A stretch of DNA of 64,000 bases, taken from IMG/VR virus record IMGVR_UViG_3300002835_000011, one strand, 5' to 3'. Source of the stretch: an uncultured virus (IMG/VR IMGVR_UViG_3300002835_000011) (lineage: Duplodnaviria; Heunggongvirae; Uroviricota; Caudoviricetes). Below are positions 21,642 to 37,990 of this stretch, in pieces; the first letter of the stretch is position 1; each line of letters starts with the position of its first letter. A program made the position numbers and the translations under genes. The notes under the pieces are model-generated. The model ran no database searches, had not been told where the DNA came from, and was given only the letters and a program-made list of their open reading frames with translations.

Positions 21642-21956
21642 ATGAACAAAAAGGCTTATTTAATTAAAGGATCTAGAATAGAAGGAGAGGAAAGAAAGGT
21701 TTGGATAGAAAGGGTAACCATATCAAAACCAAGAGCAGAAAAGATTAAAGAAACACTAAATAGTTCCCTTCTATCTGATATAGAAAAGGGTAAAGAAATA
21801 TTTGATAAGTATATCAAAGAAGGTAGTGAGGATTCACCTTGGGAGGATAAAGGATTTTATCTAGATCAAATGTCAGAAGATGAATTTAAGTATTTTTGTT
21901 ACTATAGATATGGAACTAAGCTTCCTTTTACTATACACGAAATGGAGTTAAGCTAG
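21642..21956 (+). CDS. Hypothetical protein
   Basis: 104-aa ORF. Confidence 0.55.
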   Translation: MNKKAYLIKGSRIEGEERKVWIERVTISKPRAEKIKETLNSSLLSDIEKGKEIFDKYIKEGSEDSPWEDKGFYLDQMSEDEFKYFCYYRYGTKLPFTIHEMELS

Positions 21957-22837
21957 CCAAAAATTCCGCTTATTTTTTTTCTTCTGGCTATCACCTTAAA
22001 TCTCTTCTCTGCTTTTTTTGCAATTATTCGAGCCCACTCTGGTGTTCTTCCCATTTTTTCTCCTATAGCTCTAAATTCCATAGGTTCCTTTTCTTCTCCC
22101 AATCCATATCTCAGCATAATAACTTCCTTTTCGATAGGCTTTAATTCAGAAAGAACCTGTAAAACAATATTTTTAAAGTCCTCATCTATAACTATACTGT
22201 CGCTATTCTCTGATGACTCTATAAAATTTATAGGACTAAATATATCTTCATCCGGATTATTACTACCGTGGCTTTCTAGTGGAATTGAAACTGGATTATT
22301 CTTTATAGTTTCTATTGTGCTGTTAGAGATCTTAATTCCATTTTCTGGATCTTTTATTATTTCTATCATCTCCTCGAGCGAAGGCTCTCTACCATTATAG
22401 GAGGTAAATTCATCCTCTAACAGCTGGTATCTCCTCATTTCATGATTAATGTTAGTTGGTATTCTTATTGACCTGGAATGATTATTAAGATACATTAATA
22501 TGTTTTTTCTTATGTGCCATACGGCATAGCTTATAAATTTAAAACCAGTACTAGGATCGAAAGTCTCTATGGCTTCTACTAGTCCCTTGTTTCCCTCTGA
22601 TATTAGGTCTTCTAAATTTGCCTTTGGGGATTCATAAGCTTTTGCTACAGAAACTACAAATCTTAAATTAGATTTTAAGATTATCTCTTTAGATTTTGCA
22701 TCCCCCTCCCTTGATTTTATTGCTAGTCTTGCTTCTTCGTCAGGTGTAAGTATAGGATATCTGGAAATTTCTGTAAAATATCGATTTAAATTATCTGTTA
22801 TGTTAGTGATTCGGTTGACTATTTTAAAATCACGCAT
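21953..22837 (-). CDS. Sigma-70 family factor (divergent paralogue)
   Basis: SNLRFVVSVAK, DLISEGNKGL, FDPSTGFKFISYAVWHIR and region-4 HTH. Confidence 0.95.
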   Translation of the reverse strand: MRDFKIVNRITNITDNLNRYFTEISRYPILTPDEEARLAIKSREGDAKSKEIILKSNLRFVVSVAKAYESPKANLEDLISEGNKGLVEAIETFDPSTGFKFISYAVWHIRKNILMYLNNHSRSIRIPTNINHEMRRYQLLEDEFTSYNGREPSLEEMIEIIKDPENGIKISNSTIETIKNNPVSIPLESHGSNNPDEDIFSPINFIESSENSDSIVIDEDFKNIVLQVLSELKPIEKEVIMLRYGLGEEKEPMEFRAIGEKMGRTPEWARIIAKKAEKRFKVIARRKKISGIFG

Positions 22838-25656: not shown

Positions 25657-25923
25657 GTGAAAGATTTACCATTTGAAGAATCTTGGATATCTGATAACAT
25701 ATCGATAAGGACTTTTAGCCCGGACACTGAATCCGAAGAGCTAAAATGGCACATTGATATGGAAGACCGAATAATAGAATCCCTTAGTGAAAACGATTGG
25801 CAATTTCAATCTGACAATAAGCTTCCTGTTAAAATAGAAGGAACTATAGAAATAAAAAAAGGGGAATGGCACCGAATTATTAAAGGTTCCACTCCCCTAA
25901 GAATTAAAGTAACTAGATACTAG
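25657..25923 (+). CDS. Small cupin-like conserved phage protein
   Basis: ELKWHID.EDR and WHRIIKG; AATATATA upstream. Confidence 0.6.
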   Translation: MKDLPFEESWISDNISIRTFSPDTESEELKWHIDMEDRIIESLSENDWQFQSDNKLPVKIEGTIEIKKGEWHRIIKGSTPLRIKVTRY

Positions 25924-26522
25924 GCTGCTTTAATATCTGAAGATTCTATTAAAGTATAGGTAAAAGAATTACCGTGTATTCCTCTAGCTTTTCTTACAAT
26001 CGTCATGAACGATTCAAAATCTGCAGATTTTTTAAATACCTGACATCCTTCAGACCAGTTTTCAACATATGTTGAATCAGCTCCAGCTTTATGTATATTG
26101 ATACCAAAAACGCCCTCCTGGATTTTATTCTCGTCATATTCTAGATCCTTATCAGCGTCTCTATAAACCTTTACTGGTTTAGCTTGCTTTAATGCTTCGT
26201 ATTTTCCCTGGTGTAAACCAATTCCATGTGATCCTCTGTATTGTCCCTCAACTAATCTAGCTACACCAGCAGTATTATGATATTCAAGAACACCTTTTTT
26301 TCCAGGATCTGTAGTTGCAGGCCATTCATGATATTTCCATGCTCCAGTCTCGTCTTTGTAGGATATGGTTAATAAATCATCAAAAGCATTAGTAACTTTT
26401 TGTCCTGTAGATGAATTTCTGATCCCAATAATATTAACATCGAATCCTTTGTTATTAGCGTCTTCGAAATAGACATATCCCTTGGCTTTAACGGCAGCCT
26501 CAACCTGTTCTCTTGTGTACAT
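25920..26522 (-). CDS. Putative cell-wall peptidase (L,D-transpeptidase-like His/Cys motif)
   Basis: TTDPG and GINIHK...WSEGCQV; downstream of the endolysin. Confidence 0.65.
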   Translation of the reverse strand: MYTREQVEAAVKAKGYVYFEDANNKGFDVNIIGIRNSSTGQKVTNAFDDLLTISYKDETGAWKYHEWPATTDPGKKGVLEYHNTAGVARLVEGQYRGSHGIGLHQGKYEALKQAKPVKVYRDADKDLEYDENKIQEGVFGINIHKAGADSTYVENWSEGCQVFKKSADFESFMTIVRKARGIHGNSFTYTLIESSDIKAA

Positions 26523-26588
26523 ATTTTATACTTTATTTGATATTATTTATCTCAATATTTCAATAATTCTTGTATCTAAAATTCATAC

Positions 26589-26723
26589 TTATAACAATTC
26601 TCTGTTCATTAATCTATTTTGATAATATATTACACCAAGCATAAGGATAATCACGAAAGATTGCTCCTTAAGCTTAGAAATAAAAACATCAAAAAATCCT
26701 CCCATTGGGGTTTTAGCTTCCAC
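26589..26723 (-). CDS. Short single-TM protein in the lysis cassette (holin-like or truncated)
   Basis: Translated by hand from GTG: VEAKTPMGGFFDVFISKLKEQSFVIILMLGVIYYQNRLMNRELL. Confidence 0.5.
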   Translation of the reverse strand: MEAKTPMGGFFDVFISKLKEQSFVIILMLGVIYYQNRLMNRELL

Positions 26724-26725
26724 GA

Positions 26726-27559
26726 TTATTTAAGCAATGAGTAATACTCTTTAAAGTGTTTGATTCTATCAGGTAATCCGATAGTACCTCCATTTACTCT
26801 TTTTGTTACTGCGGTAACTGTAGCATCGTCTGATCCTCTGTCGCAAATTGACCATAAGCTATTGTTATTGAAGAAGAATGCTGCAGACATTAGAGGGTAT
26901 TTAGTAGCAACTAAATCCGGATTTCCTAAGATATCGTCATCTACGAATTTATCAAAAGAAGCATAGTTAGATTTTCCTGTTAATTGGATATAGCCTCTAC
27001 CTCTAAATTTAAAACCTTCTTTAGAAGCTTCGTCACCATTGCCCATTCTGTTTCCATAAACCCTAGAAGCTATCTTTTCTGGCTGTCTTGCATAAGATTC
27101 ATTAAGATTTCCAGGGAAATATTTTGGGAATATCTTTTTAAGGCCGTCGGCAGAATAATTAAGATTTTCTGAAACGGCTTTAAAACCTCCAGACTCGTGT
27201 CCACACTGTGCTAAGAAGTGTGCAAGTCTTAATGTGTTAGTGATATTAAATTTAGCTGCTGTATCTGGGATCTGTGCAAGAACTGCATCAGGAATATGAC
27301 CCTTTAAATTTTCTAGCTTGAAAGCTGAAGGTGGTATAGAAACTGGAGCTGCTGCAGGAGCTGCTGCTACTGGTGCTGAACCAAACATCTTAGCCCAAGT
27401 ACCGTCGCCAACAATACCGTCGGCTTTTAGACCGTTAGCTGCTTGCCATTCTTTAACTTTTGCTTCTGTTCCTGGACCGAAGGAACCATCTGCGGTAAGG
27501 CCCAATTTTTCTTGGAGTTTTTTTACATCTTCTCCCTTAGATCCATTTTTAAGTAACAT
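26726..27559 (-). CDS. Modular endolysin: peptidoglycan-binding domain plus GH19 catalytic domain
   Basis: GSKGEDVKKLQ..ADG.FGPGT, Ala/Pro linker, FLAQCGHESGGF, FRGRGYIQLTG and VNGG. Confidence 0.93.
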   Translation of the reverse strand: MLLKNGSKGEDVKKLQEKLGLTADGSFGPGTEAKVKEWQAANGLKADGIVGDGTWAKMFGSAPVAAAPAAAPVSIPPSAFKLENLKGHIPDAVLAQIPDTAAKFNITNTLRLAHFLAQCGHESGGFKAVSENLNYSADGLKKIFPKYFPGNLNESYARQPEKIASRVYGNRMGNGDEASKEGFKFRGRGYIQLTGKSNYASFDKFVDDDILGNPDLVATKYPLMSAAFFFNNNSLWSICDRGSDDATVTAVTKRVNGGTIGLPDRIKHFKEYYSLLK

Positions 27560-27602
27560 AGGAATATATTTTTTATTATATATTCCCAGTTTGGGATAAA
27601 AA

Positions 27603-27848
27603 CTATTGGTAGGTAACCTTGGTAACTTCTACGGTGTCACCGATCTGATATTTCTTTTTTGTTCTAAAAGTCCTCCCACAAGATGTTTTTAATCTGAATC
27701 CTAATGGACGATTTATATCATCATGAACTGATGAAGGTTGAATTTCCTCACAAGAAATAACAGCACACTTAAAAACTTCCTCTTTCTTCTTAAAATCAAC
27801 ACAAGAAGAAAAAAGTAGTAGCCCAAAAAATAATAAAAAGTTGTTCAT
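27603..27848 (-). CDS. Putative lipoprotein
   Basis: LLFSSC lipobox; TATATTTG host-type promoter at 27853-27860. Confidence 0.6.
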   Translation of the reverse strand: MNNFLLFFGLLLFSSCVDFKKKEEVFKCAVISCEEIQPSSVHDDINRPLGFRLKTSCGRTFRTKKKYQIGDTVEVTKVTYQ

Positions 27849-27895
27849 ATTTCAAATATAGAAAAAAATCTGGGAGATAAAAAACGTTTTCTGAT

Positions 27896-28072
27896 CTAAT
27901 TAGAACTAAACAGTTCTTTATATACTTCTATCCTATTGTCGTTGAGCTGTAAACAAAGCTCCATTTGTTTTTCTTTCTTGTCCTTAGGATATTTTTTTCT
28001 TAATAGATTGTATAATTCTAGCCTCTCCCCTTCTAACTTAACACCAAGAGGGAATTTAATTCTTTCCTGCAT
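27896..28072 (-). CDS. Small hypothetical protein (58 aa, MQERIKFP...)
   Basis: Translated by hand. Confidence 0.5.
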   Translation of the reverse strand: MQERIKFPLGVKLEGERLELYNLLRKKYPKDKKEKQMELCLQLNDNRIEVYKELFSSN

Positions 28073-28123
28073 CTTAAATAATATGCCTATTATAGATAGA
28101 TAAAGAGATAAAAATTCATCTTT

Positions 28124-28200
28124 ACACGGCTTAGGACCGTGATGTTACGAGAGTATCATCTAAGACCAGGGGAATCGCAACCACCCTGGTCTTTATTTTT
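28124..28200 (+). ncRNA. Candidate structured RNA (three hairpins, the last followed by a U-rich tract)
   Basis: CACGG/CCGTG stem; ATGtTAC-GAGA-GTAtCAT stem with a GNRA loop; 10-bp AAGACCAGGG/CCCTGGTCTT stem. Confidence 0.6.
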
Positions 28201-28298
28201 TATATCATATTTTAAGGGATTAAAAAAATTCAACAATTTTTTAAAAAATTATACCATGTTTTCAAGTTTAAAAAATATATAGATAAACGACGAAAAAA

Positions 28299-30230
28299 AT
28301 GAAACCACTAAGATTAATAGGCTTCCTATTAGCAATCTTTGCTACAAACTTTAATTTATTTGCTCAATCTGGTCCACCAGCACCTTCAACAGGAATATGG
28401 GCAATAATAGACACCAACTACACTGTTGGTACAACCACACAAGGTTTTACGACCGCAAGAATTACTTCTAAGAACACTACACTTTCAAAATATACAGGTG
28501 TACAATTTAGAGTATTCTACGATAAAATAGCATTCACCAATGCTACCGTATCTCTTCTAGGATCTCCTACGAATTTAGATTTTCAATACATAACTAACGC
28601 AGCAAATGGTTACATCACCATGACCTTAGTTTATACGGGATCTAGTTCAACGTATACGCTACCCGATGGAGAGAGATTCGAAATTAATTTCACTCATGCT
28701 GCTTCATCAGTGTTTAATAACTTAGCAACTATCACACCATTAGCTTGGTCTGTTGTTCCGGCAGCTAACCCCTTCCAACAATATGCAGCTACTCAGGAAG
28801 GAGCAGACACAACACTAAATCTACACAACTACGGAGGTAACTTTATATTTCAGAATTTCGATTACCACGGAACATTTACCAACGTAACTGGAACACCTGC
28901 TAAGAACTTAACTTTAGCTCTACAAAGAAGACCATTAGGTGGTAACGTATGGTCACAACATTCAACTTATGTTACTGATATAAACGGTGACTTCGCTATA
29001 TCTGTACCATTAGATACTACTTATTGGGACGTGAGATTAGCAATACAAGGAGATTCAATGGCAGTAGGTAACGTTATTTCGACTGCAGATGCACAATTAA
29101 TTAATCAATGGGTACTAGGTAACGGTACGATGACAGGATTTGATTATTATGCAGCAGATGTTAACGAATCAGATAATGTAACTATTACTGACGCATACGG
29201 AGTATTCGGTAGAATTTCAGGAAGATTCGCAGTATGGCCTAACAATACGAAGGATGTTAAATTCTTTACACAATCCGAATATAACACTATTAACGGATCA
29301 GCAACTAACTATACATCATCAATAGCCGGAGCAACTAACTTTACATTTGAGATATTACCTGGACAACCAGATTCAGTTGTTTACTACGTAGTCGTACCAG
29401 GTGATGCTAACGGTACTGGTTATCATATGGCTCGTGTAACTCCAATTGAAGTAATAGTTGGTCCTGCACCAGGTCTTGAAAATCAAATATACAACGTAAT
29501 AGACACTAAGGTAGAATACGACTTTCCTACAGAATCAGTAGAGGTTAACGTTCCTCACATTTCAGTACAAGAGGGGAACTTAGTAAATGTACCAGTAAAG
29601 GTATTAACCAACGGAAAGGAATTAAACTCCCTTCAATTTGGATTAAAATATAACTCAGATATACTTTCATTCAAGGGAATTTACTCAACATCTTCAGTAA
29701 TGGAATGGCTTACTTATGTCAATCCAAACGACGGAGAAGTAGATTGGGGTGGATATGACATAACTAACAATCAGAAGACGCTAAAAGATGGCGACGAAGT
29801 TATAACCCTACAATTCGTAGCACTACAACCACAAAATCAATGGGATGAGAGTCCTTTATATACCACTAGAAAATTTGCAGGTAACGCATCGAATTACAAG
29901 GACTTAACATTAACGCCAACAAACGGAATTCTTCAGGTATTAAAGATATCTAACGGACAAATAATAGATGCAAACTCTATGCTAGTCTACCCTAATCCAT
30001 TCGAAGAGGAAGTTACTATAACATTTAGCCTATCAGAAACTTCTAATGCTACATTATACATATCAGATTTACAGGGAAGAAAACTAGCTACAATATTAAC
30101 TGGTCAAGTACCAAACGGACAATTTTCATACTATACAGATCTTGGTAAATTAGAATCGGGATTATATTTCGTAACTCTAACCACTGAGAACGGAAACACT
30201 ATAGTAGAAAAGATAGCCAAAATAAAATAA
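28299..30230 (+). CDS. Secreted cohesin/dockerin protein with T9SS C-terminal sorting domain
   Basis: Signal peptide; cohesin-like GVQFRVFYD and SLQFGLKYN; dockerin-like ADVNESDNVTITDA; CTD VYPNP...GLYFVTL...VEKIAKIK. Confidence 0.8.
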   Translation: MKPLRLIGFLLAIFATNFNLFAQSGPPAPSTGIWAIIDTNYTVGTTTQGFTTARITSKNTTLSKYTGVQFRVFYDKIAFTNATVSLLGSPTNLDFQYITNAANGYITMTLVYTGSSSTYTLPDGERFEINFTHAASSVFNNLATITPLAWSVVPAANPFQQYAATQEGADTTLNLHNYGGNFIFQNFDYHGTFTNVTGTPAKNLTLALQRRPLGGNVWSQHSTYVTDINGDFAISVPLDTTYWDVRLAIQGDSMAVGNVISTADAQLINQWVLGNGTMTGFDYYAADVNESDNVTITDAYGVFGRISGRFAVWPNNTKDVKFFTQSEYNTINGSATNYTSSIAGATNFTFEILPGQPDSVVYYVVVPGDANGTGYHMARVTPIEVIVGPAPGLENQIYNVIDTKVEYDFPTESVEVNVPHISVQEGNLVNVPVKVLTNGKELNSLQFGLKYNSDILSFKGIYSTSSVMEWLTYVNPNDGEVDWGGYDITNNQKTLKDGDEVITLQFVALQPQNQWDESPLYTTRKFAGNASNYKDLTLTPTNGILQVLKISNGQIIDANSMLVYPNPFEEEVTITFSLSETSNATLYISDLQGRKLATILTGQVPNGQFSYYTDLGKLESGLYFVTLTTENGNTIVEKIAKIK

Positions 30231-30234
30231 AAAA

Positions 30235-30576
30235 ATGAGCGAAGAAACAAATGCACCAGAGACCAATGACGGAACTTGGTCAGGATTAAAGAAGACAATC
30301 ATCGGAACGTTAACTACAGTAATTGCAGGTGGCGGAGTATGGGTAAGTACTATAATTTTCGGTGGCGGTAGTGAGGACAGTGAAGAAACTAAAACTGAAC
30401 AAGCTGCTCCAGCACAGCAACCGGTTATTAACTTAAACGTACAACAAAACCAAGAAAACAAGCAAAAGACTGAAAATAACGGAGGTGGTACAGTAATTAG
30501 AGAAAGAGTTATTGAAAAACCTGCAGCAACACAAGAGCCTGCTAAACCTAAAAAAGAGGAAGAGGAATCTTGGTAA
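30235..30576 (+). CDS. Single-TM protein with low-complexity tail
   Basis: TIIGTLTTVIAGGGVWV segment. Confidence 0.7.
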   Translation: MSEETNAPETNDGTWSGLKKTIIGTLTTVIAGGGVWVSTIIFGGGSEDSEETKTEQAAPAQQPVINLNVQQNQENKQKTENNGGGTVIRERVIEKPAATQEPAKPKKEEEESW

Positions 30577-30598
30577 CTAAATAAAATAAAACAAACAA

Positions 30599-31216
30599 AT
30601 GAGAAACATTTTCAACACAAAAAGCGAGTACGTTAAGGTAGAAGACAAAAACAGATTCTATTATATGCTTCAACAAATGCAAGCTAATAGATGGAGAATT
30701 ACAGCGATCGTGCTAGGATTATTTTTCTTTATCATTCTTGGAATAAACGCAGGAGTTTTTATAGGAACAACTGTTAACGAGGATTGGAAAGAAATGCTAC
30801 TTATCCTTTTAGGTGCCTTTGTAGGTAACTTAAATAAAGTGGTGGATTACTGGTTCAATTCTGAGGATAGAGATAAGATGCTTATCCAGAAAGTTGACGA
30901 GGAAGATGGCGTAGCACTTTCTAACGTATCTGAGCCTTCCCCTGAAAAAAAAACTAAAGTAACAGAGGAAGTTTACGAAGAGCCTGTAGTAGAATATCCT
31001 GCTCCAGTAGAAGAAGCTATAGTCGAAGAATTTCAAAAAGCTGAAGTTGACGAAGACGGTGACGGAGTAAATGATGGATATGATACTGACGGAGATGGAG
31101 ACATTGACGAATATTTCGAACACAGAAACTGCGAGCACATTTGGGGAGACGCAGATGGTGACGGTTTCGAAGAATGTCAAACTTGCGGATTACTAAGAAG
31201 CCAAATAGAAGAATAA
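30599..31216 (+). CDS. Two-TM membrane protein with DxDGDG repeats and a Cys/His tail
   Basis: Two hydrophobic helices; DEDGDG, DTDGDG and CEH.WGDADGDG..EC..C. Confidence 0.7.
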   Translation: MRNIFNTKSEYVKVEDKNRFYYMLQQMQANRWRITAIVLGLFFFIILGINAGVFIGTTVNEDWKEMLLILLGAFVGNLNKVVDYWFNSEDRDKMLIQKVDEEDGVALSNVSEPSPEKKTKVTEEVYEEPVVEYPAPVEEAIVEEFQKAEVDEDGDGVNDGYDTDGDGDIDEYFEHRNCEHIWGDADGDGFEECQTCGLLRSQIEE

Positions 31217-31218
31217 GA

Positions 31219-31959
31219 ATGAAAAATCTAATAATCATAATATCTATATTAAGTTTATTCAGTTGTAAAACTCTGAACGCCCAACCCCCTCAAGGAGGGG
31301 GAATTGGGTCTGTTAAAACGGAACAGTACGTTGCAGATTTCGAAAAAAAGCAATCAATAGATTCTGTTGCGGACTATGACGGAGAAATACAGGTCCCAAT
31401 ACAATTACTGAAAATAGGTATTAATGAGGAGCTATATGAATTATACCCAGAGTTAAAAGACAAAAGGGTAGGTCTAGGGGTTACAAACATAGTAATTGAA
31501 TATCTAGAATACACTAATAGATTTATCTTTACGGAGGAAAAAGAGGAGATCAAGCAAAGAATGATAGCCCAGGATAAAGCTTCCGACAAGGGAGTATCAT
31601 CTAATAAGATAGAAGTAAAGGGAAATGTTGTCCTAGCTAAATACTTTGTTTATATAGAGGTTTACGACTTTAGCGTGTCAGAAGACGAGATAGTAAAAGT
31701 GAACGGACAGCAAACGGTCAACCAGACAACTAGATTAGGACTTCAAATCAAATTTGTAGATGCTGAAACAAGCCAAGTTATCGTTGGATCAGGTTTAGGT
31801 GAAGCTGTAACCATTAAAACTTCCTCAATATTGGGTGATATTAGCGATGAAGTAAAATTCAATCAGTCAACAGTAGGTATATCCACTAAAAAAGCATTGG
31901 AAACTGCCTCATCTAGGGTCGTTACTAGGTTAATATCTAAAGGAATATTCCCAAGGTGA
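31219..31959 (+). CDS. CsgG-like lipoprotein
   Basis: LSLFSC lipobox; TNRF...E, VYDFS and LQIKFVDAETSQVI pattern of the CsgG/HfaB family. Confidence 0.72.
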   Translation: MKNLIIIISILSLFSCKTLNAQPPQGGGIGSVKTEQYVADFEKKQSIDSVADYDGEIQVPIQLLKIGINEELYELYPELKDKRVGLGVTNIVIEYLEYTNRFIFTEEKEEIKQRMIAQDKASDKGVSSNKIEVKGNVVLAKYFVYIEVYDFSVSEDEIVKVNGQQTVNQTTRLGLQIKFVDAETSQVIVGSGLGEAVTIKTSSILGDISDEVKFNQSTVGISTKKALETASSRVVTRLISKGIFPR

Positions 31960-33728
31960 AAATAAAAAATTACATACTAGTATTTTTTTTTGTTCTTGGG
32001 TTTTTTAGTGTAAAAGCTCAGACCTATAACTATTCATACACAGATCCATGTACAGGAAATATTAAAAATATAATTGTGCCTATTAACGGATCTGTTACAG
32101 TAGGTTATTATGGATTTGTACAAAACTTTACATCGCAAGATTTTTACAATGGTAATTTTGAAATATGGGCTAATGACATCTTCACACAATATGACGGATC
32201 TCCGTGTTCTGAAATAATTGGACTTGGCGGTCAAATAAACATAGCTCAGGATGTTGCCCTAAATACCGTAGGGATAATTAATTCATTATCCTCACTTATG
32301 GATATCTCTAATGGGGCTACTGACTTTTTAAGTGGGACTTTAACTGCAGCTTCTAACTCTTCCAATACGGGTAAAAAAAACTCAGATAAAAAGAATAACA
32401 ATACCGCCTCATCAGGTAATCAAGAAAATAACAATCCAGGATCATCTGGAAATAACAATACGGAAAATAATACAACAGGTAACACAAACGTAAATACAAA
32501 CCAGACTAATACGAACAATTCAGAAATAGGTACTAATAATTCCGTATCAAATAACCAAGAAAATGGAACAAGTAACACTAATGGAGGAAATCAAACCTCT
32601 TCTGGAACAAATGAAGCATCTCCAAACACTGGAGGAGCTGGATCCGCTAATACAAATGTTGGAGCTCAAGGTGAAACACCAGCAGGAGGCACTACAACTC
32701 AAAATGGATCAAATGAAAACGGAAATTCATCGACTTTGCCGACTATAAATAATCAAACCACTAACACCAATGGAAACAACGTCAACAATTCTACCAGCAG
32801 TAATAATAGTAGTACTGGTGGTAATGGGTCTAATGGGATTAATAACAACAGCTCGGGAAATAATCAAGAACCGGGACAAGAAGTAGGTAATTCTCCCAAT
32901 AGCGGTACAAATACTAGCGATCCTAATAGTGGATCAGGAAATACATCCTCACAAAATGGATCTCCGAATGGAAATGGAAATTCGCCAAATTCGGAAGAGA
33001 CACAGTCGCAAACAGAAGAGCAGGGAGGGCAAACTAATATTACTCAGGGAGCAACAAAAACAGTAAATCAAAATAGGGATGGTGGAAAACCAACCGTTAT
33101 AGCATCCAGTGACTTTGTTGGATTTAACTTTCAGAACTCAGAAGTTAGAACTGGATTAAAGCTTACTGGGGGATATCACAACATGAGGTGGGATGGTGCA
33201 ACTGCCAGAGGTGGATTAATGGATTATGTTTCTGCACAAAGAGGTCCAAATATAACTGGATATCATGCGTGGATTAACAAAAAAAGCGTAGGACTTCTAT
33301 CTGGTACATTATCAATAGGATTTGAGGGAAGAGGGTCTCTATACGGAACTATAGCAGGAGGACAGATGTTTATGTTCCCAAAAGTACCACATTTAAAAGC
33401 TGTATATATGGCGACAGTATCTTATGGCCAGGTATATAAAACTCCTTTTATAGGATCGGCTTTAATTGCAGGGGGAATGTATGATCTTAAATTTGGTAAA
33501 AGAATAGATGTAAAGCTAATGTCACTTTTCGTTTATTCACCTTACGTAAGCTATTATAACGATCTGGTTTTAAAGTCACCATATGTTATTCTGCCAAGTT
33601 TAGGAACGAATATAAATATAACTAAGAGATTTAAATTTAATATAAATGCGGGGGGAGCTTGGGCTATAAAGGTGAACACTTTAAATTATACAATAACATG
33701 TGGAACAAGATTATTAGTTGGGCAATAG
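31956..33728 (+). CDS. Secreted protein with Asn/Ser/Gly-rich linker and a probable C-terminal outer-membrane beta-barrel
   Basis: Signal peptide, long N-rich region, alternating amphipathic strands ending YTITCGTRLL. Confidence 0.65.
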   Translation: MKIKNYILVFFFVLGFFSVKAQTYNYSYTDPCTGNIKNIIVPINGSVTVGYYGFVQNFTSQDFYNGNFEIWANDIFTQYDGSPCSEIIGLGGQINIAQDVALNTVGIINSLSSLMDISNGATDFLSGTLTAASNSSNTGKKNSDKKNNNTASSGNQENNNPGSSGNNNTENNTTGNTNVNTNQTNTNNSEIGTNNSVSNNQENGTSNTNGGNQTSSGTNEASPNTGGAGSANTNVGAQGETPAGGTTTQNGSNENGNSSTLPTINNQTTNTNGNNVNNSTSSNNSSTGGNGSNGINNNSSGNNQEPGQEVGNSPNSGTNTSDPNSGSGNTSSQNGSPNGNGNSPNSEETQSQTEEQGGQTNITQGATKTVNQNRDGGKPTVIASSDFVGFNFQNSEVRTGLKLTGGYHNMRWDGATARGGLMDYVSAQRGPNITGYHAWINKKSVGLLSGTLSIGFEGRGSLYGTIAGGQMFMFPKVPHLKAVYMATVSYGQVYKTPFIGSALIAGGMYDLKFGKRIDVKLMSLFVYSPYVSYYNDLVLKSPYVILPSLGTNINITKRFKFNINAGGAWAIKVNTLNYTITCGTRLLVGQ

Positions 33729-35374
33729 TATTGTTTTCCGTGTTCCAAATACACGCACAAAACTTTACATATTCGGGCTACATATACAATGCAGATGGTA
33801 CAGGAGCAGTGAACGTACCTGTCAAATTATACAAAAGAACCACCCCGGTTATGAATGGCTTTACGTCACAAACTAACTACAACGGACATTCATATTATAG
33901 ATCAACAGGTTCAATGTTCTGGACGAATGCTAAAGCTGCATGCGAGGGCATGAACGGTCACTTAGCAACAATATCAAATCTGGCAGAAAGGACTTTCCTT
34001 TATAATACTTGGCCATCAGGCTGGATTGGATATTATCAGGATAAAACCGGAGCTTTTTATACAGAGCCTTTAGGTGGATGGAGATGGACAGAAAATTACG
34101 TAACTGCCGGAAGAGTGAGTAACTACGATGTCGCTAATTATGTTGCGGGTCCAACATTGCCTGATTCTGGTAACGGAAATAACATGTCACTCACAAACTC
34201 ACCGGTTTATACGAGCGGAGGGGGTAAATACCTTACATTCAACGGGGTCAATACTTACGGAATTACTCCTGGATTAACAAATTACTTCGGCTTATCTAAA
34301 GTAATTACACTTATTGCTTGGGTTTATCCAACAGGAAACGGTGTAATAGCTAGTGAGCTAGGTGTTCAATCCCCTTCATCTGGATGGCATGAATCTGTCA
34401 TGGAAATTACTGGAGGAAATACGCTCAGAGTTGGATTTTGGAATGGCTTAGGAATTACGCAGTTATCTACACCAATTACGCTCAATCAATGGACAATGAT
34501 TGCTGTCACATATAACGGAACAACTATGACAGGTTACAAGAACGGTGTAAGTTTTGGATCTGTTAGCTTTGTTAGACTAGCTCCTCACACAGACGGAGGG
34601 GGAAATCAAGTATTTGCTCTTGGATTAAGTGATTTTACAAACATGGGACACGGAGGCTATGGATCTTTTAGATTAGGTGCTTTTCAGGTCTACAATACAT
34701 GTCTATCAACGGACGAGATTGATAGATGTTATATGTCCCTATCTTATAGATTTGGTTTAAATCCATATCTTTCTTGGAACGGCGGGGAACCTAATAATTC
34801 GGGAAGTGAAGATTATGCACAGTTTGTTGGTGGAGGTTTATGGAATGACTTACCCAACGGTGTATCTCTTCCATATGTTTTAGAGTTTGATTATATTGTC
34901 ACATATACGCCGTGGGTTTTGCATCAGACTGTTTATACCAATTCATCCGGATATTGGAACTTTACCGTGTCCACCAATCCATCGATAGAATGGTACATCC
35001 AGCTTGACCAGACAACACCAGTTACTCAGCTAAGCGTATCCGACATGGTAGAAGTTTCTAAAATAGTCCTAGGTATAACATCAAGGAAAAGCATCCATTA
35101 CAACAGATATGACGTTAATAACGATGGAAGAATAACGGTGGCAGATGAAAGCTACATCAATTTAAGAAGAAATAATTTTATGGGGGGATGGATAAACACT
35201 CCACCCGCTAGATACTATACTACAGCGCAGTATAGCACACTTAATAGCAATACAGCGGATCTAAGAATAACTATACCTGGTGTTAATTCAATAACTATAA
35301 ACTCTCCAGTAAGCGGAGGATCAGTAAATTATTATCTAATAGCACCAGCTTATAAATCAACAGTAAATTATTAA
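33698..35374 (+). CDS. Secreted C-type lectin / LamG / dockerin protein
   Basis: Signal peptide MWNKIISW..; YNGHSYY..W..AK..C..GHLATI, WNGGEPNN, WNDL; LamG-like insert; YDVNNDGRITVAD. Confidence 0.8.
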   Translation: MWNKIISWAIVLFSVFQIHAQNFTYSGYIYNADGTGAVNVPVKLYKRTTPVMNGFTSQTNYNGHSYYRSTGSMFWTNAKAACEGMNGHLATISNLAERTFLYNTWPSGWIGYYQDKTGAFYTEPLGGWRWTENYVTAGRVSNYDVANYVAGPTLPDSGNGNNMSLTNSPVYTSGGGKYLTFNGVNTYGITPGLTNYFGLSKVITLIAWVYPTGNGVIASELGVQSPSSGWHESVMEITGGNTLRVGFWNGLGITQLSTPITLNQWTMIAVTYNGTTMTGYKNGVSFGSVSFVRLAPHTDGGGNQVFALGLSDFTNMGHGGYGSFRLGAFQVYNTCLSTDEIDRCYMSLSYRFGLNPYLSWNGGEPNNSGSEDYAQFVGGGLWNDLPNGVSLPYVLEFDYIVTYTPWVLHQTVYTNSSGYWNFTVSTNPSIEWYIQLDQTTPVTQLSVSDMVEVSKIVLGITSRKSIHYNRYDVNNDGRITVADESYINLRRNNFMGGWINTPPARYYTTAQYSTLNSNTADLRITIPGVNSITINSPVSGGSVNYYLIAPAYKSTVNY

Positions 35375-35375
35375 T

Positions 35376-35966
35376 ATGAAAAAACTACTACTACCATTAA
35401 TCTTTATCTCACCACTATTTGTATTTTCGCAAAAGTCACTAAGGGATTCAATTTACATCAAAACAGACATGTTTGAAATTGTATACTCGGAAAAATTACA
35501 GCAACCCAAATTTATCAGATATACCGTACAATGTCCAAACGGAACTGCACCAAGAACTGGCATGGACTTTTATGTTTGCGATTCAATAGTAACGTCAGAT
35601 CACAAAGACTATGAGAGTAATCCATACGACAAAGGACACCTTGCTCCTGCTGCAGATTTTAACTGTACAAAAGAAAAATTATATAATACCTTTACATATT
35701 TGAATTGTTCCCTACAGCAAGAGAACCTAAATAGGACTACGTGGAGATTGTTAGAAGTTAGAGAAAGAGAATTGGCAAAAACAAATAAAGAAGTTATTGT
35801 CGAGATCAGATGTATATTTTCTAGTAAATCTGTTGTACTCCCAACTGGAGCAACTATACCTGATGGATACATTAAAACTATAAAATACGGAAATAAGGTC
35901 GAAAGATATTACTTCAAAAATGAAAAACCCATATCTACAGACTATAATAAATATCTAATCAAATGA
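35376..35966 (+). CDS. Secreted DNA/RNA non-specific endonuclease
   Basis: Signal peptide; YDKGHLAPAADF and N...Q...LNR..W..LE. Confidence 0.92.
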   Translation: MKKLLLPLIFISPLFVFSQKSLRDSIYIKTDMFEIVYSEKLQQPKFIRYTVQCPNGTAPRTGMDFYVCDSIVTSDHKDYESNPYDKGHLAPAADFNCTKEKLYNTFTYLNCSLQQENLNRTTWRLLEVRERELAKTNKEVIVEIRCIFSSKSVVLPTGATIPDGYIKTIKYGNKVERYYFKNEKPISTDYNKYLIK

Positions 35967-36415
35967 AAAATATAATCCTAATTCTAATTTCAATAGTATT
36001 TTGTATAAATGCTAATGCCCAGCAATGTGTGTATGTAGATTCGGTTTACAATACAGCAAAATTAAAAGAGATGGGAAATCGAGATATACGATTTGGTATA
36101 AGACAAATAGTAGAAGACGAACTCTCTGAAAGGTTCTGCTTGTCCGAAGATGGAAAGGATATAGATGTTGAAGTTTTTTACTTTGGTTTACCTAAAACAA
36201 CTATAAGAGTTGTTGGAATAGAAAAAACAGAATCCGTAACACAAGTTGGTATTAAATTATACTACGACGGTAAATGTTACGAGGGGATTGGGGAATCTGA
36301 AACTGAAATAAGAGCAATTATGATCGAGGTGAAAGAGGGAATGTTACCTTTTGAAAAAATGACAGTATCATCAGCACTTAAAAAAGCAATACATGAAGCA
36401 GTAATAAAGATATGA
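35963..36415 (+). CDS. Secreted protein, possibly a compact CsgG-like fold
   Basis: Signal peptide; FGIRQIVE, GIGES and VSSALKKA resemble LGVTNIVIE, GLGEA and STKKA in 31219..31959. Confidence 0.55.
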   Translation: MKNIILILISIVFCINANAQQCVYVDSVYNTAKLKEMGNRDIRFGIRQIVEDELSERFCLSEDGKDIDVEVFYFGLPKTTIRVVGIEKTESVTQVGIKLYYDGKCYEGIGESETEIRAIMIEVKEGMLPFEKMTVSSALKKAIHEAVIKI

Positions 36416-36864
36416 TAAGAAGCTCTCTCTTTATAATTTTTATATTTATAACAAATTCTATCTTGTCACAAATAAGAGTAGCAGACGTCGGTGATGGATG
36501 GAAAAACAAGGTCGACAGTGCAATATCTATTATAAAAAAATACGACTTAGAAAAATACAATGTACTTTTAGAGTCTTGCACAGATATCGGATACTGGAAC
36601 GGATCATTCTCTACTACGGAGGGAGATTCTATGATAACCATAGCAGTTAATGATATAAAAAATCCTAATATTTATAACATCGCAGCTATACTTGTACATG
36701 AATCGATGCACCTCTATATCAAGCAACTATATTCTAAGTTAGATCCCAATAAGGAAGAGGCTCTTTGCTATAAGTATGAGCTTAATTTTCTAATGAAAAT
36801 ACCAGGTGTAGATCCTTGGCTAGTATCTAATGCTGTAAAGATGATAGAGTACTACGAGAAATAA
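36412..36864 (+). CDS. Secreted HExxH putative metallopeptidase
   Basis: Signal peptide; AILVHESMH...EEALCY. Confidence 0.7.
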   Translation: MIRSSLFIIFIFITNSILSQIRVADVGDGWKNKVDSAISIIKKYDLEKYNVLLESCTDIGYWNGSFSTTEGDSMITIAVNDIKNPNIYNIAAILVHESMHLYIKQLYSKLDPNKEEALCYKYELNFLMKIPGVDPWLVSNAVKMIEYYEK

Positions 36865-37175
36865 ATCTTCTCCGGATATTTACCAAAAACAAATTCAGTT
36901 ACATAACAAAGCCAAATAGTAGATGGTCCGTGCCACGCATCATTATTATAATATCCAGGAGTAGATTCCGTATGATCGTACGTCAGTGTCTTAGCTCCGT
37001 CAAATGGTTCATCGCTAAATGTTACGTAGCAATAGTCTGAATTATTGGATAATATTTCCAAAAGTATATCTGCACCCATAACCATTTCGAGATCATCCTT
37101 ATCTCCTTCCCATTCAGGAAGATCTACAAACCATTTTCCGTCTTCCTCTTTATAGAATTTAAATCTTCTTGTCAT
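36852..37175 (-). CDS. Conserved hypothetical protein (DUF6717-like)
   Basis: WFVDLPEW, LEMV.GAD and WLC.VT.FVFG.YP..IY. Confidence 0.65.
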   Translation of the reverse strand: MTRRFKFYKEEDGKWFVDLPEWEGDKDDLEMVMGADILLEILSNNSDYCYVTFSDEPFDGAKTLTYDHTESTPGYYNNDAWHGPSTIWLCYVTEFVFGKYPEKIYFS

Positions 37176-37990
37176 TCTTGTATATCTAATACTAAGACAT
37201 CATCGCAATCGTCCCATAGACAATCTACTAAGTAGTGTGTAACTTCACCACACACAATATCCTTTACCATTCTCTGTGGAGTGTGCCCTACTATCTGATT
37301 AACTCCTTCCAGAGGAAATTCATTCAAGATCATAGGTCTAACCCAGAAAGGTCCTGCCCATAAGTTATAACCACCGCTGTGTGCATCGACGTTAAATATG
37401 TTATCAACTCTAAGCTCGAACAAATCATTTAGGAATTTTTCCAGATCATCTGGATCGAAATCCTTAGTTATTTCATAATGTCTATATTTTGGATTAAGAA
37501 TATCCTTATGTGTATCTTTTAGCCATCTATCAGTAACTCCTGCGTGCGTCCATAAATACTTGATTCCAGTGTTATCCTTAACTAAATGAGCAGCCTTGAA
37601 ACACTCTTTATTTTCGGTAAAGATCTGATAAAGATCTGGCTGCATTTCTGCCCTATATCCACTACATATCTCATTAGGAACAAAATATTGTATATCGTGA
37701 TTTCCTAGTAAGAGCACAACTTTATCTGGTAATGCTTTTTTAAAGAAAAGTATTTTTTTAAGATTATCTAAGATTACCACATTGCTAAGGTCATAGCTAT
37801 CGACGTAATCACCCACAAATATTATCTTGTCATACTGTGTATATGGCATTTCTTTCCATAATTCTTCATTATCTGCAGGAGCACCATTTTCAACAGCAGT
37901 CATCCAAAAATTAAATTCATATGGGCTTCCGTGCGTGTGGAACATCCACCTATCACGGCCATGAACATCGCCAATAGTTAATATCTTCAT
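37172..37990 (-). CDS. Metallophosphoesterase
   Basis: GDVHG, GDYVD, GNHD, THAG and GHT. Confidence 0.92.
   Translation of the reverse strand: MKILTIGDVHGRDRWMFHTHGSPYEFNFWMTAVENGAPADNEELWKEMPYTQYDKIIFVGDYVDSYDLSNVVILDNLKKILFFKKALPDKVVLLLGNHDIQYFVPNEICSGYRAEMQPDLYQIFTENKECFKAAHLVKDNTGIKYLWTHAGVTDRWLKDTHKDILNPKYRHYEITKDFDPDDLEKFLNDLFELRVDNIFNVDAHSGGYNLWAGPFWVRPMILNEFPLEGVNQIVGHTPQRMVKDIVCGEVTHYLVDCLWDDCDDVLVLDIQE

What the first reader, a model, noticed from the sequence alone, without database searches (positions are those of the whole stretch)
28299..36864. Phage-encoded 9-gene cell-surface assembly operon: T9SS-type cohesin/dockerin scaffold, dockerin-lectin, CsgG-like proteins, OM barrel, nuclease and peptidase
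Seen: nine tightly coupled + strand genes, each with a signal peptide, lipobox or TM helix, in a region otherwise made mostly of small cytoplasmic proteins. The first ends in a T9SS type-A sorting domain and has two cohesin-like and one dockerin-like module. The sixth has C-type lectin, LamG and dockerin-like modules. Established: T9SS is characteristic of Bacteroidota, cohesin-dockerin pairs assemble multiprotein complexes, and CsgG forms outer-membrane secretion pores. Inference: the phage builds a multiprotein adhesin and enzyme complex on the infected cell using host secretion. Possible roles include aggregation, receptor masking or superinfection exclusion, grazing defence, or scavenging extracellular DNA.
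Basis: partly seen in the sequence, partly recalled or inferred. Interest (0 to 1): 0.85.

Follow-up and report, generated by a model that had tools for sequence, protein, structure and literature searches.

The report
Phage envelope cassette beside lysis genes
A giant lake-water phage of Flavobacterium-type bacteria carries nine tightly packed genes whose products all go to the infected cell's membranes or surface; the block is conserved in many related phages, nearly always sits beside the cell-bursting genes, and its purpose has never been tested.

Summary
Nine coupled + strand genes (28299-36864) all encode exported or membrane proteins. Independent assemblies of 4 of 4 lake runs bridge both borders. 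The block recurs in 81 phage loci and in cultured Flavobacterium phage immuto. Close relatives turned up in no bacterial chromosome, only on two contigs binned into metagenome-assembled genomes.

Domain calls:
- T9SS type-A tail, C-type lectin, LamG and NucA-type nuclease pass curated cut-offs.
- One cohesin passes in relatives.
- The "dockerin" never passes, but resembles the X-module-dockerin of CipA (E 0.003).
- The "peptidase" rests on an invariant HExxH motif only.

An endolysin gene lies within 2.5 kb in 41 of 46 loci, in several arrangements. The lectin head is exchangeable.

I read it as a late, lysis-linked envelope complex that displays lectins. Binding, surface location and purpose are untested, and co-folding was unavailable. 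I found no paper on it. This scan has met the same cassette on other DNA at least 14 times.

The parts
28299..30230 (+). p1, 643 aa: signal peptide, N-terminal beta domain (res 27-175), X-module-dockerin-like module (res ~197-371), unassigned domain (res ~310-397), cohesin (res ~412-552), T9SS type-A C-terminal sorting domain (res 563-639)
   Evidence: Por_Secre_tail 3.9e-13; TIGR04183 1.8e-11. (Por_Secre_tail in 20 of 20 family members; Cohesin in 14 of 20 at E<=1). (Cohesin 36.9-47.5 bits in 6 of 10 relatives, at ~408-540). (dockerin 4uyp_B E 0.0048; T9SS tails 8glk_D and 8glj_D). (N-terminal domain: only PDB hit is cohesin ScaC, E 0.37).
30235..30576 (+). p2, 113 aa: single-pass inner-membrane protein with a short N-terminus, one Gly-rich TM helix, a low-complexity Q/N/E/K/P tail and an invariant C-terminal EE[ED][SP]W
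   Evidence: alignment A9, 22 sequences; W113 and the acidic run are invariant. Topology is by reading. No Pfam or PHROG family.
30599..31216 (+). p3, 205 aa: holin-like core (~115 aa, two TM helices, charged C-terminus). In this phage it also has an acidic extension with DxDGD repeats and a Cys/His cluster.
   Evidence: A10: core 1-112 nearly invariant in 17 sequences; extension present in 5. Found in 35 of 81 loci. No holin family hit.
31222..31959 (+). p4, ~245 aa (ORF opens at 31174): CsgG-fold protein with signal peptide and lipobox-like LFSC; the most conserved product of the cassette
31956..33728 (+). p5, 590 aa: signal peptide, N-terminal domain with two invariant Cys (res ~22-135), Asn/Ser/Gly/Thr-rich linker of variable length (res ~136-375), C-terminal 12-strand outer-membrane beta-barrel (res ~380-590)
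33698..35374 (+). p6, ~558 aa (ORF opens at TTG 33659): signal peptide, C-type lectin domain split by a LamG insert, C-terminal X-module-dockerin-like module (res 397-571 of the ORF). The head is exchangeable among relatives.
   Evidence: Laminin_G_3 3.7e-13; Lectin_C 5.9e-6. (heads in 12 relatives). (A7: tail homologous to p1 197-371). (tail profile hits CipA X-Doc 2b59_B at E 0.0032). (contig breaks at 33.68-33.73 kb in 4 of 4 runs).
35376..35966 (+). p7, 196 aa: exported DNA/RNA non-specific endonuclease (NucA/EndoG type); an accessory part
   Evidence: Endonuclease_NS 2.8e-18. (phrog_14168 nuclease 1.6e-15). Present in 29 of 81 loci.
35963..36415 (+). p8, 150 aa: exported short paralogue of p4 (CsgG/LpoB-like superfamily) that lacks p4's helical insert
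   Evidence: hhalign of A3 against A4: probability 96.1%, E 2.9e-9, 113 columns. No direct Pfam or PDB hit.
36412..36864 (+). p9, 150 aa: exported small HExxH protein (putative mini-zincin)
   Evidence: H96, E97, H100, E115 and E116 invariant in 25 sequences. (nearest named clusters DUF6647 and eCIS_core; a lead only). No PDB hit.
25920..28072 (-). Divergently transcribed lysis genes: endolysin 26726-27559 (PG_binding_1 plus GH19-like), second lysin-like gene 25920-26522, 81-aa lipoprotein-like gene 27603-27848, and a 58-aa gene 27896-28072
   Evidence: phrog_181 endolysin 4e-65; phrog_3000 7.3e-37. (PG_binding_1, Glyco_hydro_19). (linkage in relatives).

Best explanation
This is a conserved, phage-only module. 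It is inherited with the endolysin and, in many relatives, lies in the same gene run. It is therefore probably expressed late, and it fits out the envelope of the infected T9SS-bearing (Flavobacterium-type) cell.

Proposed working:
- All nine products leave the cytoplasm through Sec or insert in the inner membrane.
- p1 is carried across the outer membrane by the host's T9SS through its type-A C-terminal domain. It presents a cohesin and an X-module-dockerin-like module.
- p6 is a lectin whose head is swapped between phages. It carries the same module as its tail and docks on p1's cohesin. p1 may also chain to itself.
- p5 inserts as a 12-strand barrel. Its small disulphide domain sits on a long flexible tether, in the domain order of an autotransporter.
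- p4 and p8 (CsgG fold) sit under the outer membrane, probably as rings.
- p3 is holin-like. p2 is an inner-membrane tether with an invariant acidic-Trp end.
- p7 (nuclease) and p9 (HExxH) are dispensable accessories.

Most likely purpose: at and after lysis, the lectin coat binds the host-type surface glycans of the bursting cell and its debris. This would mask receptors, so that fewer progeny are lost on debris.

Shown here: gene structure, conservation, phage-only distribution, domain families, folds of p4 and p5, and the lysis linkage. Inferred: timing, surface location, cohesin-module binding, ring formation and purpose.
For: - Real and conserved: 81 loci; cultured phage immuto gp012-gp019. 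Contigs bridge both borders in 4 of 4 runs.
- Phage-only: the p4 scan of one genome for each of 185,579 bacterial and archaeal species found none. The p1 scan found 2 contigs binned into metagenome-assembled genomes, one of them 254 kb.
- Host T9SS use: the type-A sorting domain passes in the window and in 20 of 20 relatives.
- Cohesin: 6 of 10 relatives pass Pfam.
- Shared tail module of p1 and p6. Its profile hits CipA X-Doc 2b59_B at E 0.0032, and about 10 of its 19 PDB hits are dockerins. The p1 profile hits dockerin 4uyp_B at E 0.0048.
- Exchangeable heads: among 12 relatives, Lectin_C alone 2, with LamG 1, with Ig_7 2, Ig_7 alone 1, GEVED 3, no family 3. Contig breaks and lower depth lie at the p5/p6 junction in 4 of 4 runs.
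- p4 is CsgG-like. p8 is its paralogue.
- p5 barrel.
- Lysis linkage: an endolysin homologue lies within 2.5 kb in 41 of 46 loci that have 2.5 kb or more on both sides, in at least five arrangements. Several have the lysin 17-57 bp from a cassette gene on the same strand.
- More conserved than the large terminase subunit (TerL): two complete giant phages (289 and 308 kb) share about 69% identity in p4 but only 24-32% in TerL.
Against: - No binding, location, timing or phenotype data exist.
- The dockerin-like module never reaches Pfam's cut-off (best 19.3 against 22.9 bits). It has one clear Ca-loop, not two.
- The window's own p1 does not itself hit Pfam Cohesin, and 4 of 10 relatives checked do not either.
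- p6 has no T9SS tail, so its route to the surface is unexplained.
- Late timing is inferred only from operon position next to endolysin.
- The inner-membrane parts (p2, p3), the CsgG-fold proteins and the barrel are not needed for simple lectin display. They fit a lysis role at least as well.
- immuto keeps its endolysin about 5.7 kb away, and 5 of 46 loci show no lysin within reach.
- Many loci are near-duplicates, so the counts overstate independence.
- The p5 model is of middling confidence (pLDDT 70.4).
Confidence: 0.38

Rival explanations
1. The cassette is the outer-membrane-breaching arm of lysis in these phages, a substitute for spanins. p3 acts as holin. p2 is an inner-membrane tether reaching p4/p8/p5 in the outer membrane. 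The surface lectin-cohesin parts cluster or destabilise the outer leaflet, so that the envelope opens after the endolysin acts.
For: - Linkage to endolysin in 41 of 46 loci across rearrangements, often in one gene run.
- p3 has holin-like architecture.
- p2 is a single-pass membrane protein with an invariant C-terminal motif, like a partner-binding end.
- p4 has a lipobox-like signal.
- p5 is an outer-membrane barrel.
- Phage CsgG next to lysis-related genes was proposed to time lysis in Melnitz (PMC9004378, passages read).
I did not test that.
Against: - No spanin, holin or disruptin family hit for any product.
- p2 is low-complexity rather than coiled-coil.
- p3 is found in only 35 of 81 loci.
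- A T9SS-exported cohesin protein and a lectin with exchangeable heads, both near-universal in the cassette (78 and 74 of 81), have no obvious part in membrane rupture.
- A separate 81-aa lipoprotein-like gene lies in the lysin operon itself.
Confidence: 0.25
2. The cassette causes 'sibling capture' or aggregation. The displayed lectins bind the surface glycans of neighbouring host cells and hold them near the lysing cell, so that progeny quickly find new hosts.
For: - Lectin heads vary as host-recognition parts do.
- The cohesin and dockerin-like modules could give multivalent scaffolds.
- The same idea was raised for the curli-like cluster of pelagimyophages (PMC7029224, passages read).
Against: - No adhesion data exist.
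- Melnitz-infected cultures showed no clumping (PMC9004378), though that is a different system.
- This idea does not explain the lysis linkage better than receptor masking does.
- The role of p4, p5 and p8 is left open.
Confidence: 0.12
3. The cassette is an early superinfection-exclusion or surface-conversion module. It remodels the envelope to block other phages, independently of lysis.
For: - All products are envelope-directed.
- The lectin head varies.
- A periplasmic nuclease (p7) could degrade incoming DNA.
Against: - Co-location, and in many loci shared gene runs, with endolysin argues for late expression.
- No PADLOC defence family hit, apart from one chance-level methyltransferase match for p5 (E 0.0073, 13.8 bits).
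- p7 is present in only 29 of 81 loci.
Confidence: 0.08
4. The cassette scavenges nutrients or degrades the biofilm matrix. The exported nuclease and protease, aimed by lectins, free nucleotides or loosen biofilm and debris for replication or dispersal.
For: Exported NucA-type nuclease, an HExxH protein and lectins.
Against: - The enzymes are the least conserved parts (p7 in 29 of 81, p9 in 66 of 81).
- The core is non-enzymatic.
- Peptidase activity of p9 is unproven.
Confidence: 0.05
5. The block is a host-derived insert or an assembly chimera, not a phage feature.
For: GC content is slightly higher over 28-36 kb (0.36-0.37) than in most of the window (0.31-0.36). The strand is opposite to that of the flanking genes.
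Against: - Both borders are bridged by contigs of 4 of 4 independent runs.
- 20 runs hold 93% or more of the sampled words.
- The cassette is in 81 phage loci and in a cultured phage.
- No chromosomal relatives were found.
Confidence: 0.01

Closest known systems
Flavobacterium phage vB_FspM_immuto (NC_055915, genus Immutovirus), genes gp012-gp019
   Same: It is a cultured relative of the cassette. It has the nuclease (57% identity to p7), a C-type lectin protein (51-56% to p6), p1 split into gp014 plus gp015 ('cohesin domain-containing protein', 29-33%), p2 (64% over its first half), p4 (66%), p5 (25-30%) and p8 (31%).
   Different: The gene order is permuted (p7-p6-p1-p2-p4-p5-p8). It has no p3, no p9 and no LamG insert. 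Its endolysin lies about 5.7 kb downstream rather than adjacent. The record annotates the genes singly and mostly as hypothetical. Eight papers mention the phage, but by their titles and abstract openings alone none appears to concern these genes (search listing only).
Phage-encoded CsgG/CsgF 'curli' cluster of pelagimyophages (HTVC008M group) and Methylophilales phage Melnitz (PMC7029224; PMC9004378; passages read)
   Same: These are also large phages that carry a CsgG-type outer-membrane lipoprotein absent from the host, of unknown role. The proposed roles are macromolecule uptake, 'sibling capture' and timing of lysis. A phage protein named CsgG is the best viral fold match of p4 (E 3.8e-8).
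   Different: Those clusters have bona fide CsgG plus CsgF of proteobacterial type and no T9SS cargo, cohesin, lectin or barrel. Here p4 fails Pfam CsgG directly. No product of the window hits any curli family (CsgF itself was not searched for). The hosts are Bacteroidota.
'Cryophage' of cryoconite holes: phage-encoded T9SS cargo proteins (PMC7468147, passages read)
   Same: It is a phage of Bacteroidota-type hosts that encodes proteins with T9SS type-A sorting domains. They vary between phage variants and are presumed to hijack the host secretion system.
   Different: The cargo there is enzymes and a PA14 protein (endoglucanase, GH39). No cohesin or dockerin-like modules, CsgG-fold proteins, barrel or lysis linkage is described.
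Cellulosomal and non-cellulosomal cohesin-dockerin assemblies, especially CipA X-module-dockerin II with SdbA cohesin II (PDB 2b59, 3kcp)
   Same: p1-family proteins have a Pfam cohesin. The tail module of p1 and p6 aligns to the CipA X-module plus first dockerin loop (E 0.0032). The logic is a scaffold plus exchangeable heads.
   Different: The module is below the dockerin cut-off and shows a single clear Ca-loop. The setting is a Gram-negative envelope with a T9SS tail instead of SLH or sortase anchoring. It is encoded by a phage. Binding is untested.
Type Va autotransporter translocator domains (NalP 1uyn, EspP, EstA) and 12-strand porins KdgM and NanC
   Different: There is no sequence similarity. 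No predicted pore-filling helix precedes the barrel (model residues 1-19 are disordered). The linker is a 240-residue low-complexity stretch. Surface exposure of the N-terminal domain is untested.

Membership tests
T9SS type-A cargo (Por_Secre_tail / TIGR04183) | C-terminal sorting domain that matches the curated models above cut-off | tested here: met
   p1 residues 563-639: PF18962 49.9 bits (cut-off 27) and TIGR04183 43.8 bits (cut-off 23). Present in 20 of 20 family members.
T9SS type-A cargo (Por_Secre_tail / TIGR04183) | N-terminal Sec signal peptide | tested here: inconclusive
   A hydrophobic N-terminus ending in AQ/SQ is conserved in alignment A2, judged by reading. No signal-peptide predictor was available, and p1 fell under my crude hydropathy threshold.
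T9SS type-A cargo (Por_Secre_tail / TIGR04183) | Export depends on the host T9SS, with tail removal by PorU | not testable with these tools
   Needs a T9SS mutant host.
Cohesin (PF00963) | Match to the family model above the gathering score | tested here: inconclusive
   The window's p1 has no hit at E<=1. Six of 10 relatives pass (36.9-47.5 bits, cut-off 24.1) over the full 139-position model, at the region that aligns to p1 ~412-552. Fourteen of 20 match at E<=1.
Cohesin (PF00963) | A second, N-terminal cohesin (p1 residues 27-175) | tested here: inconclusive
   hhalign against the C-terminal cohesin gives probability 0.2%. The only PDB hit of its profile is cohesin ScaC 4uyp_A, at E 0.37.
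Dockerin (PF00404) | Match above the gathering score (22.9 bits) | tested here: not met
   16.0 bits (p1) and 18.5 bits (p6). The best among all relatives checked is 19.3 bits.
Dockerin (PF00404) | Two duplicated Ca-binding loop-helix segments | tested here: inconclusive
   One DxNxDGxIxxxD-type loop has invariant N and D in A7. The first segment is degenerate. Profile hits to solved dockerins are at E 0.003-1.2 and E 0.0048.
Dockerin (PF00404) | Ca-dependent binding to a cohesin | not tested
Needs pull-down or ITC.
CsgG (PF03783; curli type VIII secretion channel) | Sequence membership above the gathering score | tested here: not met
   No CsgG hit for p4 or p8 at E<=1. The link is transitive only: 13 of 33 distant phmmer relatives pass, and profile A4 hits E. 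coli CsgG at E 2.9e-4.
CsgG (PF03783; curli type VIII secretion channel) | CsgG fold | tested here: met
CsgG (PF03783; curli type VIII secretion channel) | Two amphipathic hairpins that build a 36-strand nonameric transmembrane pore | tested here: inconclusive
   The model has one long hairpin (strands 141-158 and 163-180). The stretch where I expect the second hairpin (CsgG topology recalled, not taken from a call) is a low-confidence coil. The hairpin carries invariant S-E-D-E and polar tip residues. No oligomer was modelled.
CsgG (PF03783; curli type VIII secretion channel) | Partner genes csgE/csgF and amyloid subunits csgA/csgB | tested here: inconclusive
   No product of the cassette matches any curli family. 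CsgA, CsgB, CsgE and CsgF were not searched for specifically, and the p5 linker is low-complexity.
Type Va autotransporter | C-terminal 12-strand barrel | tested here: met
Type Va autotransporter | Sequence membership, and a pore-filling helix before the barrel | tested here: not met
   No Pfam, NCBIfam or PDB sequence hit. Model residues 1-19 before the barrel are disordered, with no helix.
PorP/SprF T9SS outer-membrane partner barrel (PF11751) | Profile similarity to the family | tested here: not met
   hhalign of A5 against an alignment of 24 PorP/SprF proteins taken from Bacteroidota genomes gives probability 0.1%. No hit in Pfam.
DNA/RNA non-specific endonuclease (PF01223) | Match above cut-off | tested here: met
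   p7 scores 66.8 bits (cut-off 23). The catalytic His sits in a DKGH motif by my reading; the motif name is recalled, not taken from a tool.
C-type lectin (PF00059) and LamG-like (PF13385) | Matches above cut-off | tested here: met
   p6: Lectin_C 27.4 bits (cut-off 22.6) and Laminin_G_3 50.3 bits (cut-off 27.6). Relatives without the insert score 59-60 bits on Lectin_C. Sugar binding is not tested.
Zincin metallopeptidase | HExxH plus a third ligand, with a family or fold match | tested here: inconclusive
   HExxH and EE are invariant in 25 sequences. There is no PDB hit, Pfam hits are weak only, and the atlas gives leads to DUF6647 and eCIS_core.
Holin / spanin | Match to a known holin or spanin family | tested here: not met
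   No PHROG, Pfam or NCBIfam lysis family for p2, p3 or p4. The resemblance is in architecture only.

The most novel reading that the evidence does not exclude
Phages of Bacteroidota carry a self-contained, horizontally exchanged 'exit apparatus'. It would be a cellulosome-style cohesin/X-dockerin scaffold exported by the hijacked host T9SS and armed with swappable lectins. It would be joined to a CsgG-fold ring, an autotransporter-like barrel, a holin-like protein and an inner-membrane tether. Together these would replace spanins, both opening the outer membrane and neutralising the receptors on the debris. That would be a new class of phage release system.
Probability: 0.2. Interest if true: 0.85.

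Novelty: new variant of a known kind. Interest (0 to 1): 0.66.

Why it matters
How phages of Bacteroidota cross and deal with the outer membrane at release is poorly understood, and I found no recognisable spanin here.

- The block is 8.5 kb. p4 alone has thousands of metagenomic relatives (5768).
- Between two giant-phage lineages, p4 is better conserved than the large terminase subunit.
- The block nearly always stays next to the endolysin. That makes it a strong candidate for an undescribed late function at the host envelope.
- If the modules bind as cohesin-dockerin pairs do, this would be the first phage-encoded assembly of that kind I know of. It would also be a second, far more elaborate case of a phage using the host's T9SS.
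- The exchangeable lectin heads would be a new read-out of phage-host glycan specificity in lakes and seas.
- A cultured phage-host pair (immuto and Flavobacterium sp. LMO8) makes the question directly testable.

Tried and rejected
- No whole genome is held for the window.
- No near-identical DNA in the GenBank phage collection.
- Profile of close p4 relatives (A1) against PDB: no CsgG hit. Only the wider profile A4 reached it.
- p8 profile against PDB: only chance-level ribosomal S1 hits.
- p5 barrel profile against PDB sequences: nothing. The atlas gave weak leads only (DUF3943, OMP_b-brl 11%).
- Search for short relatives of the p5 barrel: 99 hits, none with a Pfam family.
- My crude beta-moment script found only 4 segments and was not informative.
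- PorP/SprF kinship of p5: rejected.
- PADLOC: no defence family beyond a chance-level methyltransferase hit.
- Rfam and tRNA scans of the region and window: nothing.
- The sigma-70 promoter scan was at chance level (40 found against 36.6 expected). The terminator scan gave 7 against 4.9 expected. Bacteroidota and phage sigma promoters are not covered.
- No RNA holder is listed among the sequencing runs, so nothing can be said on expression.
- The dockerin-like module, p1 as a whole, p8 and p9 were not folded, because the cap is two jobs.
- Literature: searches for 'Flavobacterium phage' + 'immuto'; phage + 'type IX secretion' + 'C-terminal domain' + 'phage-encoded'; cohesin + dockerin + bacteriophage + Flavobacterium; and T9SS + 'phage genome' + 'C-type lectin' + auxiliary turned up no description of this cassette. 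Subscription journals and supplements were not searched.

Full report
**What is there.** The window is a non-structural stretch of a large phage.
- It encodes a Dda-like helicase, thymidylate synthase, RNA ligase, two sigma factors, a ClpP-like protease, endolysins and many small genes, and it has low GC.
- From 28299 to 36864, nine + strand ORFs lie between - strand genes. I call them p1 to p9.
- With p4 started at ATG 31222 and p6 at ATG 33698, which is where homologues begin to align, the junctions run from a 31-nt overlap to a 22-nt gap.
- By reading the translations, p1 and p4 to p9 begin with signal-peptide-like segments (p4 with LFSC before the Cys). p2 has one TM helix and p3 has two.
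- A crude hydropathy scan flagged 6 of 9 cassette ORFs against 11 of 99 others.

**It is real, and it belongs to the phage.**
- Twenty lake or freshwater runs hold 93% or more of the sampled words of 27500-37400.
- In four runs not flagged as the possible source, contigs bridge both borders (for example 26750-30874 and 36349-37142 in X11).
- A scan of IMG/VR with p4 found 126 relatives, of which 80 loci were kept.
- tblastn of all nine proteins over these and the immuto locus found p4 in 81, p5 in 81, p1 in 78, p2 in 77, p6 in 74, p8 in 67, p9 in 66, p3 in 35 and p7 in 29 of 81. Many loci are near-duplicates.
- The cultured Flavobacterium phage vB_FspM_immuto has the block as gp012-gp019, in permuted order.
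- Scans of one genome for each of 185,579 prokaryote species found no p4 relative. They found two p1 relatives on contigs binned into metagenome-assembled genomes, one of 254 kb.
- Complete relatives are giant phages of 289 and 308 kb. The 100-kb contigs are about one-third-complete fragments.
- Between those two complete phages the large terminase subunit (TerL) is 24-32% identical, whereas p4 is about 69% identical between the window and the second lineage. The cassette is therefore either unusually constrained or exchanged between lineages.

**The parts.**
- **p1.** It carries a T9SS type-A sorting domain, present in 20 of 20 relatives.
  - Pfam Cohesin is not hit by the window copy. It is hit over the model's full length by 6 of 10 relatives checked (36.9-47.5 bits, cut-off 24.1), at the region aligned to p1 ~412-552.
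  - The N-terminal domain is only hinted to be cohesin-like: its sole PDB hit is cohesin ScaC at E 0.37, and hhalign against the C-terminal cohesin gives 0.2%.
- **p6.** It has a C-type lectin domain interrupted by a LamG domain, both above cut-off (the insert is shown by comparison with immuto).
- **The shared tail module.** p1 (~197-371) and the C-terminal ~175 residues of p6 are homologous.
  - The module holds one clear DxNxDGxIxxxD loop and never passes Pfam Dockerin_1 (best 19.3 against 22.9 bits).
  - Its profile hits the X-module-dockerin of C. thermocellum CipA (2b59_B, E 0.0032), and about 10 of its 19 PDB hits are dockerins. The p1 profile hits dockerin 4uyp_B at E 0.0048.
- **The exchangeable head.** In 12 relatives the gene in the p6 position keeps this tail but changes its head: Lectin_C alone 2, Lectin_C with LamG 1, Lectin_C with Ig_7 2, Ig_7 alone 1, GEVED 3, no family 3. 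In all four runs, contigs break with loose ends at 33.68-33.73 kb, and depth is lower over much of p6. This fits co-existing variants.
- **p4.** It is the best-conserved product (76% mean column identity; 5768 relatives).
  - It fails Pfam CsgG directly, but 13 of 33 distant phmmer relatives pass. A wide profile hits E. coli CsgG at E 2.9e-4.
  - It has one long hairpin, but the hairpin bears an invariant SEDE motif. A CsgG-type membrane pore is therefore doubtful.
- **p8.** It is a short paralogue of p4 (hhalign probability 96.1%, E 2.9e-9).
- **p5.** It has an N-terminal domain with two invariant Cys, a low-complexity linker of variable length, and a C-terminal domain.
  - That domain models as 12 strands (pLDDT 70.4).
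  - It is not PorP/SprF-like.
- **p7.** A NucA-type nuclease.
- **p9.** It keeps HExxH and EE invariant but has no solved relative.
- **p2.** A single-pass membrane protein with an invariant EE[ED][SP]W end.
- **p3.** It has a nearly invariant two-TM, charged-tail core of holin-like build.

**Context.**
- In the window the cassette diverges from a - strand lysin operon: an endolysin with PG_binding_1 and a GH19-like domain, a second lysin-like gene, and an 81-aa lipoprotein-like gene.
- Of 46 loci with 2.5 kb or more on both sides, 41 have a homologue of one of the two lysins within 2.5 kb.
- The arrangements differ: upstream and divergent; upstream on the same strand 22-29 bp before p1; downstream of p9; downstream of p6 by 37-57 bp; or next to an inverted p9.
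- Other flanking genes of the window recur in only 3-4 loci.
- The linkage to lysis genes therefore survives rearrangement. This suggests shared timing or function.

**How it most likely works.** I commit to a late envelope complex that displays exchangeable lectins.
- p1 is exported by Sec and then by the host T9SS. p6 docks on p1's cohesin through the X-dockerin-like tail. p5 sits in the outer membrane, p4 and p8 beneath it, and p2 and p3 in the inner membrane.
- The purpose would be to bind host-type glycans on the bursting cell and its debris (receptor masking). Confidence 0.38.
- Shown: the parts, their conservation and the linkage. Inferred: timing, location, binding and purpose.
- Main rival: the block is the outer-membrane-breaching arm of lysis (0.25).
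- Others: sibling capture (0.12), early exclusion (0.08), scavenging (0.05), artefact (0.01).
- The unexplained step in my reading is how p6, which has no T9SS tail, would reach the surface before lysis.

**Comparison with what is known.**
- Phage-encoded CsgG/CsgF clusters of unknown role are in print for pelagimyophages and Melnitz, with uptake, sibling capture and lysis timing proposed (PMC7029224 and PMC9004378, passages read).
- Phage-encoded T9SS cargo is in print for 'Cryophage' (PMC7468147, passages read).
- I found no paper on this cassette.
- This scan has noted look-alike cassettes on other DNA at least 14 times. Those AI notes gave me the two CsgG papers and the cue to test lysis linkage systematically. 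I re-tested linkage, the barrel, the CsgG fold and head swapping myself. I did not test their 'spanin slot' or 'crAss-like phage' claims.

**Verdict.** The cassette is a new and elaborate variant of phage-encoded envelope modules, undescribed in the literature I could search, and it can be tested in a cultured pair.

Noticed in passing
window 28120-28200 (+): There is a terminator-like hairpin (GACCAGGG ... CCCTGGTC followed by a T-run) inside the divergent intergenic region upstream of p1, with no + strand gene before it. It has no Rfam match. One run carries a 1-nt insertion at 28183. It could be a small RNA or a regulatory element.
   Followed up: partly
window 27603-27848 (-): An 81-aa ORF with a lipoprotein-type N-terminus (LLFSSC) lies just upstream of the endolysin in the same direction. 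It is conserved in 3 close relatives. It could be an outer-membrane lysis lipoprotein.
   Followed up: partly
window 30911-31216 (+), C-terminus of p3: In this phage and 4 relatives, the holin-like p3 carries an acidic extension of about 90 aa with DxDGD repeats and a Cys/His cluster. The other 12 aligned homologues lack it.
   Followed up: no
window 5505-6062 (-) and 4340-4753 (-): Pfam hits to Tad6, a type I Thoeris inhibitor (9.4e-14), and to a cREC_REC cyclic-phosphate-processing receiver domain (3.9e-22). These are probably counter-defence genes.
   Followed up: no
window 44966-45940 (-) and 47086-47457 (-): A deoxyhypusine-synthase-like gene (2.8e-41) and an S-adenosylmethionine decarboxylase gene (1.3e-27). 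The phage carries polyamine-pathway genes.
   Followed up: no
window 21953-22837 (-) and 52186-53049 (-): Two phage-encoded sigma-70 family factors. The cassette's promoter may depend on one of them.
   Followed up: no
window 23492-25105 (+) and 19105-19830 (+): A GT17-family glycosyltransferase (3.2e-30) and a PAP2 phosphatase (2.5e-8) lie a few kb upstream. These are further candidate envelope-modifying genes.
   Followed up: no
distant relatives of p4 (P0203, P0224, P0229; P0215, P0244): The p4-like CsgG-fold domain also occurs fused to caspase (Peptidase_C14) domains and to Ser/Thr protein kinase domains in metagenomic proteins.
   Followed up: no
relatives of the p5 barrel (e.g. P0330, P0326, P0299): Stand-alone proteins of 168-300 aa, homologous to the p5 barrel only, occur on large contigs of up to 175 kb. 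They may be second, untethered barrels in related phages, although short hits can also be genes cut at a contig end.
   Followed up: no
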